DNA of 64,000 nucleotides, taken from the NCBI GenBank assembly GCA_964016885.1, contig OZ024743.1, positions 118,358,001-118,422,000 of the forward strand. Reading direction: 5' to 3'. Every line of letters starts with the position of its first letter. The first letter of the stretch is position 1. Source of the DNA: Eledone cirrhosa (taxonomy: Eukaryota). The notes under the pieces were generated by a model. That model was not told the origin of the DNA and did not search any database. It was given only the letters and a program-made list of their open reading frames with translations. This document shows, piece by piece, positions 10,453 through 11,811 of this stretch. A program made the position numbers and the translations under genes.

Positions 10453-11017
10453 TATATATATATATATATATATATATAAGTATGTACACGTACATACATA
10501 TATGTATACAGACGTACAGTAGCATGTATGTATATATATATACATACATGAACACATATATAAACGGAAAAAACGAAACGAAATTTCATTCCCCACACTT
10601 AGTACGGCTGTTACTTAAATATAAGTATCTACACGTACATAGATATATGTATACAGACGTACAGTAGTATGTATATATATAGATATACATACATGAACAC
10701 ATATATATATGTACGTATGGATTCACCGAACATTTATTATAATGCTCGATGTGTTTGTAAACAAACATCCCGTATTAAGCCGTAGCGTCTGTATACATAT
10801 ACTGTACGTCTGTATACATATATGTATGTATGTGTACATACTTATATTTAAGTAACAACCCTACTCAGAGTGGGAAATGAAATTTCGCTTCATTTTTTCC
10901 GTTTATCGTTTTCGGTGCACCCGGCCGATTAACCCACTCGATATGCAAATTGGGCTACTCAGCCGTTAATATGCGTAAGGTAAGTATATACGTTCAACAA
11001 TCTGGCAGGAAGGTATA

Positions 11018-11058
11018 CATTGCTGACGATAGCTAATAAGCTTGAAACTAGTACAGCG
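11018..11058 (+). ncRNA. Minimal type I hammerhead ribozyme
   Basis: CUGACGA (11023-11029), then AGC-UAAUAA-GCU, GAAA (11044-11047) and CUAGUA^CAGCG. Stem I is CGUUG/CAGCG in the sister copies. Stem III is the palindrome ACUAGU. Confidence 0.85.
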
Positions 11059-11439
11059 TTCCTTTGTCAGTGTTGAACAAACGAGCAACGATGGTTGCTG
11101 GACACTACGGCTTAATGCGGGATGTTTGTTTACATACACTCCGTGCATTGTAATAAATGTTCGGTGAATCCATACGTACATATATATATATGTGTTCATG
11201 TATGTATATATATATACATACTACTGTACGTCTGTATACATATATGTATGTACGTGTACATACTTATATTTAAGTAACAGCCGTACTAAGAGTGGGAAAT
11301 GAAATTTCGTTTCATTTATTCCGTTTATCGTTTTTGGTGCACCCGGCCGATTAACCCACTCGATATGCAAATTGGGCTACTCAGCCGTTAATATGCATCA
11401 GGTAAGTATATACGTTCAACAATCTGGCAGGAAAGTATA

Positions 11440-11480
11440 CGTTGCTAACGATAGCTAATATGCTTGAAACTAGTACAGCG
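11440..11480 (+). ncRNA. Hammerhead copy with core mutation (CUAACGA, G5A), probably inactive
   Basis: Second tandem unit; otherwise matches 11018-11058. Confidence 0.7.
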
Positions 11481-11622
11481 TTCCTTTGTCAGTGTTGAAC
11501 AAACGAGCAACGATGGTTGCTGGACACTACGGCTTAATACGGGATGTTTGTTTACAAACACACCGAGCATTATAATAAATGTTCGGTGAATCCATACGTA
11601 CATATATATATGTGTTCATGTA

Positions 11623-11672
<50 letters not shown>

Positions 11673-11778
11673 CATACTACTGTACGTCTGTATACATATA
11701 TGTATCTACGTGCACATACTTATATTTAAGTAACAGCCGTAATAAGAGTGGGAAATGAAATTTCGTTTCAATTTTTCC

Positions 11779-11811
<33 letters not shown>

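What the first reader, a model, noticed from the sequence alone, without database searches (positions are those of the whole stretch)
10490..11785. Second, unrelated about 421-nt tandem hammerhead family with the same architecture
Seen: about 2.4 tandem units plus an inverted arm, in (TA)n. The first unit has a canonical minimal HHR (CUGACGA...GAAACUAGUA^, palindromic stem III ACUAGU), the next unit has G5A, and a dispersed copy lies at 33.9 kb. No sequence similarity to the 591-nt unit is visible. Inference: an independent retrozyme family using the same mobilisation route.
Basis: partly seen in the sequence, partly recalled or inferred. Interest (0 to 1): 0.78.

Follow-up and report, generated by a model that had tools for sequence, protein, structure and literature searches.

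The report
Penelope-mobilised hammerhead tandem repeat
A 422-base non-coding repeat carrying a self-cutting hammerhead RNA motif was pasted into TA microsatellites in the tandem-plus-mirror pattern that Penelope-type jumping genes leave, so it is a real but expected new member of the animal 'retrozyme' class, and every copy seen here is slightly damaged.

Summary
Observation confirmed: 2.36 head-to-tail 422-nt units (10790-11784) follow an inverted arm (10471-10789) between (TA)n tracts, with a 5'-truncated copy at 33893-34241. The type I hammerhead is real (0 of 3000 shuffled units pass the descriptor; a metagenome repeat has 30 of 31 core letters with a different, still paired helix I). It is not the PLE 'minimal' type: it has a 6-bp helix I with a long extension, a U·U-closed helix II and a palindromic helix III. 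All three copies carry a private defect (helix I mismatch, G5A, broken helix III), so this locus should not release a monomer. Outward-facing 3' ends, two end points 60 nt apart and (TA)n targets are Penelope-like-element (PLE) hallmarks; a decayed RT-GIY-YIG-type PLE lies in the same window. No ORF, no similarity to the 591-nt unit. Best reading (0.6): a non-autonomous PLE passenger (non-LTR retrozyme) of a probably octopod genome; main rival (0.3): tandem terminal repeats of a coding PLE. No genome or RNA data were available to decide. The class is published, and the scan has noted similar PLE/retrozyme cases on other DNA. New member of a known kind.

The parts
10451..10478 (.). left (TA)n target tract
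10471..10562 (-). short inverted piece (92 nt) ending at the inner 3' end point E1 and running into (TA)n
10560..10789 (-). 5'-truncated inverted arm (230 nt), no hammerhead, ending at the outer 3' end point E2
10786..10840 (.). head-to-head (5'-5') inversion junction with a 21-nt local duplication and microhomology
10790..10906 (+). partial first direct unit (3' 117 nt, ends at E2)
10907..11328 (+). direct unit 1 (422 nt)
10992..11078 (+). type I hammerhead of unit 1 with extended helix I; core at 11023-11053 intact, predicted cut 11053/11054, A.C mismatch in helix I
11269..11328 (+). 60-nt segment between the two 3' end points E1 and E2 (PLE 'tail' equivalent)
11329..11784 (+). direct unit 2 (456 nt, internal TA run expanded), ends at E2
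11414..11500 (+). hammerhead of unit 2, G5A at 11447, predicted cut 11475/11476
11782..11813 (.). right (TA)n target tract
33893..34241 (+). dispersed 5'-truncated single copy in (TA)n, ends at E1; hammerhead core at 33983 with C15.2A
56470..59780 (-). context: decayed, frameshifted PLE (RT related to RT-CxxC linker-GIY-YIG proteins) between (TA)n tracts; no DNA similarity to the unit

Best explanation
A non-coding 422-nt hammerhead-bearing unit that is copied in trans by a Penelope-like element (PLE), i.e. a non-LTR retrozyme-type passenger, probably in an octopod. Shown: periodic non-coding array, type I hammerhead, inverted 5'-truncated arm, two 3' end points, (TA)n targets, independent decay of all pieces. 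Inferred: an ancestral active master was transcribed as multimers; neighbouring hammerheads paired through the ACUAGU palindrome and cut at GUA^; the long helix I extension holds the monomer ends together for ligation; a PLE RT/GIY-YIG protein nicked (TA)n DNA, started reverse transcription inside the RNA at E1 or E2 (215 and 275 nt downstream of the cut), copied more than two units of a multimeric or circular template and switched template to give the head-to-head arm. The locus has since decayed (about 2% per copy) and, in the double-hammerhead mode, only unit 2's site could still be cut, so it should release no monomer.
For: Two head-to-tail junctions at the same position (10906/10907 and 11328/11329). 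Differences among the four array pieces are all private (105-nt shared segment: pairwise 5-10 differences, additive star), as expected if they were written from one template at once. No ORF: longest stop-free frames 53 aa (sense) and 65 aa (antisense); 73 PLE proteins find nothing at E<=0.05 in 8801-13000 or 32001-36000. Hammerhead passes a structure descriptor that 0 of 3000 shuffled units and 2 of 100 shuffled windows pass; L001 keeps 30 of 31 core letters with a different helix I that pairs 6 of 6. Geometry matches the canonical type (6-bp helix I, short palindromic helix III; PMC4209133) with the U.U base of helix II reported for axolotl retrozyme HHR_Amex2 (PMC7229834), and not the PLE min-HHR consensus CUGANGAH-G...C-GAAA. 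Size and GC fit 150-450 bp, <50% GC. Circular monomer folds at -121.0 kcal/mol, 0 of 60 shuffles as low. Extended helix I duplex -21 to -25 kcal/mol vs -11.2+/-2.7 for 300 shuffled partners. Architecture, tail and (TA)n bias are PLE hallmarks (PMC8557442; PMC3846280; PMC11167929). A decayed PLE sits in (TA)n in the same window.
Against: Only one array and one truncated copy could be examined; no genome is held, so a coding master cannot be excluded. None of the 3 hammerhead copies is flawless; the array fails the 'two consecutive complete motifs' rule. Rfam gives no hammerhead match for unit 1 at E<=10 and only 13.2 bits, E 1.1, to HH9 for the dispersed copy. MFE folds do not form the three-way junction. 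The folding excess is not strand-specific (antisense z -5.0), is weak for unit 1 (z -2.1), and the paired fraction (0.65) is close to that of shuffles (0.63). In Xenopus only 1 of 9 predicted retrozyme dimers cleaved in vitro, and in the anole PLE hammerhead cleavage was not needed for insertion. The window's PLE shares no DNA similarity with the unit, so the mobilising partner is unidentified.
Confidence: 0.6

Rival explanations
1. The unit is the terminal repeat (pLTR) of a coding PLE whose master carries it in tandem; this locus is simply a 5'-truncated, partly inverted insertion that stopped before the ORF. No independent small RNA replicon exists.
For: All architectural marks are those of coding PLE insertions: partial tandem, inverted 5'-truncated copy, tail. 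Most PLE insertions are 5'-truncated. PLE-linked hammerheads with small palindromic helix III exist in flies, rotifers, shrimp and mosquitoes, and a D. willistoni hammerhead family occurs both with PLEs and in a large tandem array of 450-bp units. Earlier notes on other genomes ended in this reading once genome data were at hand (unchecked).
Against: Needs a master with at least three repeats in a row; the unit has no ORF start or stop-proximal coding remnant, whereas pLTRs often include the first codons; the hammerhead departs from the PLE min-HHR consensus.
Confidence: 0.3
2. One short PLE-derived insertion was duplicated locally (unequal crossing-over or slippage helped by the internal TA run), giving a mini-satellite; the tandem form says nothing about the RNA template.
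For: This route from a PLE end to a tandem repeat is proposed in the 2026 preprint; the region is a pile-up of microsatellites and nested insertions.
Against: Units 1 and 2 share no derived change against the other pieces; over a 71-nt stretch unit 2 is identical to the dispersed copy while differing from unit 1 at 5 sites. The partial first unit already contains the same junction.
Confidence: 0.08
3. The hammerhead is a chance look-alike in an AT-rich repeat.
For: No significant Rfam match; non-standard U.U at the base of helix II; descriptor was written after seeing the motif.
Against: 0 of 3000 shuffled units pass; independent helix I covariation in L001; the same U.U-closed helix II sits in complete type I (2 of 18) and type III (3 of 18) hammerheads among phage hits.
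Confidence: 0.02

Closest known systems
Animal non-LTR retrozymes (Cervera & de la Pena 2020, PMC7229834; Li, Clavereau & Pollet 2026, bioRxiv 10.64898/2026.07.22.740005), closest: mussel 350-390-bp and axolotl Rtz_353/HHR_Amex2 repeats
   Same: Non-coding tandem unit of 150-450 bp, GC below 50%, one type I hammerhead per unit, short palindromic helix III, U.U at the base of helix II (Amex2), coexistence with PLEs, stable predicted fold.
   Different: Only 2.36 units; second motif is G5A; inserted in (TA)n with an inverted arm and two 3' end points, features I did not see described for retrozymes in the parts of those papers I read; no expression or cleavage data; host lineage (probably octopod) not among the species examined in the text I read.
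Insertion products of endonuclease-bearing Penelope-like elements (pLTR, inverted 5'-truncated copy, tail; PMC8557442, PMC3846280, PMC11167929), Neptune-type for (TA)n bias
   Same: Head-to-head inversion with both 3' ends outward, optional tail, microhomology junction, microsatellite targets, hammerhead upstream of the 3' end.
   Different: No ORF or ORF remnant; tail equivalent is 60 nt (30-40 nt typical); 3' ends lie 215-275 nt past the cut; hammerhead is not the min-HHR consensus.
Drosophila willistoni Dwi_HHR2 family (PMC4209133 supplement, Fig. S5A)
   Same: A hammerhead family found both with PLEs and in tandem repeats of about 450 bp.
   Different: Up to 85 units there; no sequence comparison was possible from the extracted figure text.

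Membership tests
Non-LTR retrozyme | Short (150-450 bp) non-coding tandem repeat, GC <50%, no LTR-retrotransposon features | tested here: met
   422 nt, GC 37%, longest stop-free frame 65 aa; PBS/PPT not searched
Non-LTR retrozyme | Type I hammerhead in each unit | tested here: met
   motif at 11023, 11445, 33983; structure descriptor beats shuffles; Rfam not significant
Non-LTR retrozyme ('active', Li et al. criterion) | [quoted passage not shown] | tested here: not met
   unit 2 is G5A; G5A abolishes cleavage (PMC4027429 passage)
Non-LTR retrozyme | Self-cleavage of the transcript (monomer or dimer) | not testable with these tools
   needs in vitro assay
Non-LTR retrozyme | Accumulation of linear and circular monomer RNA | not tested
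Non-LTR retrozyme | Non-autonomous: family not attached to its own RT ORF | tested here: inconclusive
   no ORF beside either of the 2 loci in the window; genome not held
PLE insertion product | Partial tandem plus adjacent inverted 5'-truncated copy | tested here: met
PLE insertion product | Optional 3' tail (two end points) | tested here: met
   E1 used by 2 pieces, E2 by 2 free ends, 60 nt apart; only two loci
PLE insertion product | Target-site duplication or microsatellite target | tested here: inconclusive
   (TA)n at all outer ends; a TSD cannot be read in (TA)n
Autonomous PLE | RT plus GIY-YIG ORF between the repeats | tested here: not met
   no tblastn hit of 73 PLE proteins around either locus
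PLE minimal hammerhead (min-HHR) | CUGANGAH, G10.1-C11.1, long helix II, short helix I, little or no helix III | tested here: not met
   U.U plus 3-4 bp helix II, 6-bp helix I with extension vs consensus

The most novel reading that the evidence does not exclude
A cephalopod non-LTR retrozyme family, shared by several related species, whose insertions carry the full PLE signature (inverted arm, two internal reverse-transcription start points, (TA)n targeting). It would be direct sequence-level evidence that PLE enzymes mobilise a canonical-hammerhead small circular RNA in trans, a link so far argued from co-occurrence and pLTR similarity, and it would define the cis signal (the region around E1-E2) in a 422-nt substrate; at least two unrelated units in one window would use the same route.
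Probability: 0.4. Interest if true: 0.5.

Novelty: new member of a known kind. Interest (0 to 1): 0.3.

Why it matters
Modestly. Tandem type I hammerhead repeats and their dependence on PLEs are published. What this locus adds is a likely new host lineage and insertion footprints (inverted arm, tail-like double end point, TA targets) that tie a retrozyme-sized unit to PLE enzymes more directly than co-occurrence does. If a non-autonomous, circle-forming master is confirmed, it is a compact substrate for asking how PLE reverse transcriptase picks its internal start and whether circles are transposition intermediates.

Tried and rejected
Sequencing runs: no RNA holder listed; 7 of the 19 holding rows had small shares and are disregarded. 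Laying reads on the monomer gave no result, so tandem form and hammerhead state in other organisms remain unknown. Rfam: 249 matches at E<=1 over the window, the 150 shown are microsatellite-driven or unrelated, none a hammerhead (99 lower rows not shown); nothing for unit 1 or L001. Pattern scans: hammerhead pattern 0 hits in prokaryote genomes; family-specific 20-mer 0 hits in viral contigs; 13 of 18 viral hits of the shorter core pattern passed neither my type I nor my type III check. L001 shares only the 31-nt core with the window, so it is not a member of this family. The window's PLE as direct parent: no DNA similarity in blast; its 3' region scored 22-23 in local alignment, reached by 24 and 3 of 200 shuffles among 20 comparisons, rejected as chance. 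A 12-nt match to 12126-12137 and a 13-nt match in the 591-nt unit are within shuffle range. One tblastn hit at 10258-10395 (E 0.017 for 1 of 73 queries) vanished at E<=0.05 in the focused search. In one search the inverted-arm row of the 71-nt comparison was one base out of register and its counts were discarded; the constrained monomer energies there omit the helix I extension and were not used. Look-ups of earlier findings by sequence and by genome returned nothing.

Full report
OBSERVATION. The described structure is there. Tandem Repeats Finder gives period 422, 94% matches, at 10792-11642; blastn extends it to 11784. Using the landmark at which the right end meets (TA)n, the direct part is a 117-nt partial unit (10790-10906), unit 1 (10907-11328) and unit 2 (11329-11784, internal TA run expanded): 2.36 units. 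To the left, on the other strand, lie a 230-nt arm (10560-10789) and a further 92-nt piece (10471-10562). The arm and the array meet 5' to 5' through a short microhomology and a 21-nt duplication; their 3' ends point outwards into (TA)n. A single 5'-truncated copy lies in (TA)n at 33893-34241. Two 3' end points are used: E1 (the 92-nt piece and the dispersed copy) and E2, 60 nt further on (the arm and unit 2); they are 215 and 275 nt downstream of the predicted cut. The 591-nt array has the same head-to-head layout and also two different outer end points but no sequence similarity: local alignment scores are matched by 137 of 200 and 65 of 200 shuffles, and its hammerhead-like motif is a U3-A8 variant with a long helix II loop.

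THE RIBOZYME MOTIF. Unit 1 reads helix I 5' strand, CUGACGA, a helix II closed by U.U over three to four pairs, GAAA, the palindrome ACUAGU, A17, helix I 3' strand. A structure descriptor that allows one unpaired base on either side of helix II (written after I had seen the motif) finds 4 canonical-core hits in the window, against a mean of 0.02 in 100 block-shuffled windows (2 of 100 with a hit) and 0 of 3000 shuffled units. Independent support: the one metagenome hit, L001, shares 30 of 31 core letters and nothing else, and its helix I has a different sequence that pairs 6 of 6; it sits in a non-coding contig with a 78-nt terminal repeat (72 of 78 identical, unit 1075 nt). Among 18 viral-contig hits of the shorter core pattern, 2 are complete type I and 3 (one motif) complete type III hammerheads with the same U.U-closed helix II; 13 passed neither check. 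Against: Rfam finds no hammerhead in unit 1 at E<=10 or in L001, and only 13.2 bits (E 1.1, gathering 52) to Hammerhead_HH9 for the dispersed copy, though with the expected topology; minimum-energy folds of 71-nt pieces do not form the junction, as expected when helix III needs a partner: two ACUAGU copies pair at -6.8 kcal/mol. Helix I continues beyond an internal loop for about 20 more pairs (-21 to -25 kcal/mol; 300 shuffled partners -11.2+/-2.7, lowest -22.3). By the definitions of Cervera & de la Pena 2014 (PMC4209133; main text parts 1-2 of 4 and parts 1-2 of 3 of one supplement file read) this is closer to the canonical metazoan type than to the PLE min-HHR, whose consensus has a bulged base followed by G10.1-C11.1. 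A U.U pair at the base of helix II is described for the axolotl retrozyme motif HHR_Amex2 (PMC7229834, parts 2-4 of 6 read; its supplement could not be read). So 'canonical minimal' in the finding mixes two classes.

DAMAGE. Each of the 3 copies has one private defect: unit 1 a G-to-A change giving an A.C mismatch in helix I, unit 2 G5A, the dispersed copy C15.2A, which abolishes the palindrome (+1.2 kcal/mol). G5A abolishes cleavage (PMC4027429, passages). In a double hammerhead each core cuts the partner's site (established model, from my own knowledge and Fig. 1A legend), so here only unit 2's site could be cut and no monomer released (inference). Two of three copies have the intact state at each position, so the source was probably intact (inference from three copies). 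The locus fails the 'active' criterion of Li et al. 2026 (bioRxiv 10.64898/2026.07.22.740005, parts 1-3 of 5 read; supplements not seen).

HOW THE ARRAY AROSE. Units 1 and 2 differ at 11 of 244 and 5 of 105 compared sites; in the 105-nt segment shared by four array pieces all differences are private, and in a 71-nt stretch unit 2 equals the dispersed copy while differing from unit 1 at 5 sites. That fits one event writing all pieces from one periodic template followed by independent decay, and does not fit a late local duplication. The unit is non-coding (longest stop-free frames 53 and 65 aa) and 73 PLE proteins find nothing at E<=0.05 within about 2 kb of either locus. The circular monomer folds at -121.0 kcal/mol, below all 60 shuffles (z -5.1), but its paired fraction is ordinary (0.65 vs 0.63); without the microsatellite part z is -5.2 for unit 2 and the dispersed copy, -2.1 for unit 1, and -5.0 for the antisense strand, so this shows self-complementarity, not a circular RNA.

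THE MOBILISER. Partial tandems, an adjacent inverted 5'-truncated copy, an optional 30-40-bp tail and (TA)n bias are the listed hallmarks of endonuclease-bearing PLEs (PMC8557442, passages; PMC3846280, passages, which also reports pLTR sequences acting in trans). In vitro, an anole PLE nicks AT-rich DNA and starts reverse transcription at two internal RNA sites whose spacing is the tail, and hammerhead cleavage is not required (PMC11167929, parts 1-2 of 4). E1 and E2 are best read as such start sites (inference). The window holds a decayed PLE at about 56470-59780 (minus): its RT fragment finds 73 relatives, tblastn of these maps to 57847-59763 across frameshifts, and full-length relatives have RT followed by GIY-YIG with a CxxC linker, Neptune-like (label from my knowledge); both of its ends abut (TA)n. 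It has no DNA similarity to the unit, so it shows that the machinery exists in this genome, not that it is the partner.

HOST AND SPREAD. The only named close relative of the window's 949-aa LINE protein is from Argonauta hians (68%), so the host is probably an octopod (inference). No genome was held, which leaves the key question open.

COMPARISON AND NOVELTY. It works like, and structurally fits, an animal non-LTR retrozyme; membership is unproven because cleavage, circles and non-autonomy were not shown, and the 'active' criterion is not met at this locus. The class, its size range and the PLE link are published, and hammerheads were already annotated in the giant squid genome (235 matches; PMC6962438, passage). 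Searches for 'octopus + Penelope + hammerhead' and 'cephalopod + retrozyme' listed no paper describing such a family, and PMC5680766 has no octopus or mollusc mention (passages); the library is incomplete and unread supplements of PMC7229834 and the preprint may bear on this. Earlier notes of this scan describe several comparable PLE-end or retrozyme-like cases on other DNA (unchecked).

VERDICT. Real feature, correctly seen; a decayed PLE-mobilised hammerhead tandem, more likely a non-autonomous retrozyme-type unit (0.6) than the tandem end of a coding PLE (0.3). New member of a known kind; interest 0.3.

Noticed in passing
window 9809-12314: The array sits in a pile-up of insertions separated by (TA)n: two copies of another hairpin-ended family (9809-10016, 10268-10449; third copy 19795-19989) on the left and a long inverted-repeat element (11815-12115) on the right.
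   Followed up: partly
window 3361-3523 and 34430-34580: A third hammerhead family: palindromic insertion with a motif on each strand (3486 +, 3398 -) and a related motif at 34503 (-) with a different helix II but the same helix III; passes the descriptor.
   Followed up: partly
window 5848-8137: 591-nt array: copies and inverted arm are essentially 100% identical (very young); its motif is a U3-A8 hammerhead variant with a ~50-nt helix II loop, predicted cuts 591 nt apart; two outer end points as in the 422-nt family.
   Followed up: partly
window 56470-59780 (-): Decayed C-rich PLE between (TA)n tracts with a min-HHR-like core at 56592 about 100 nt from its 3' end; the GIY-YIG part is no longer recognisable by tblastn.
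   Followed up: partly
L001:753-783 and 846-955: Metagenome repeat (1075-nt unit) with nearly the same hammerhead core followed by four TAACCC telomere-like hexamers, recalling telomere-associated PLE ends.
   Followed up: partly
L016:5001, L017:5001, L008:451, L009, L019: Phage/viral contigs with complete type I or type III hammerheads whose helix II is closed by U.U, the same variant as in this repeat.
   Followed up: partly
window 41200-44813 (+), 26900-29950 (-), 45400-48500 (+): Three non-LTR retrotransposons: a 949-aa RT/zf-RVT open frame with upstream endonuclease fragments, and two frameshifted RT elements.
   Followed up: partly
window 14657-15256 and 35656-36256; 21846-63682: A 600-nt repeat in two inverted copies (96%), and a SINE-like repeat with at least ten dispersed fragments.
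   Followed up: no
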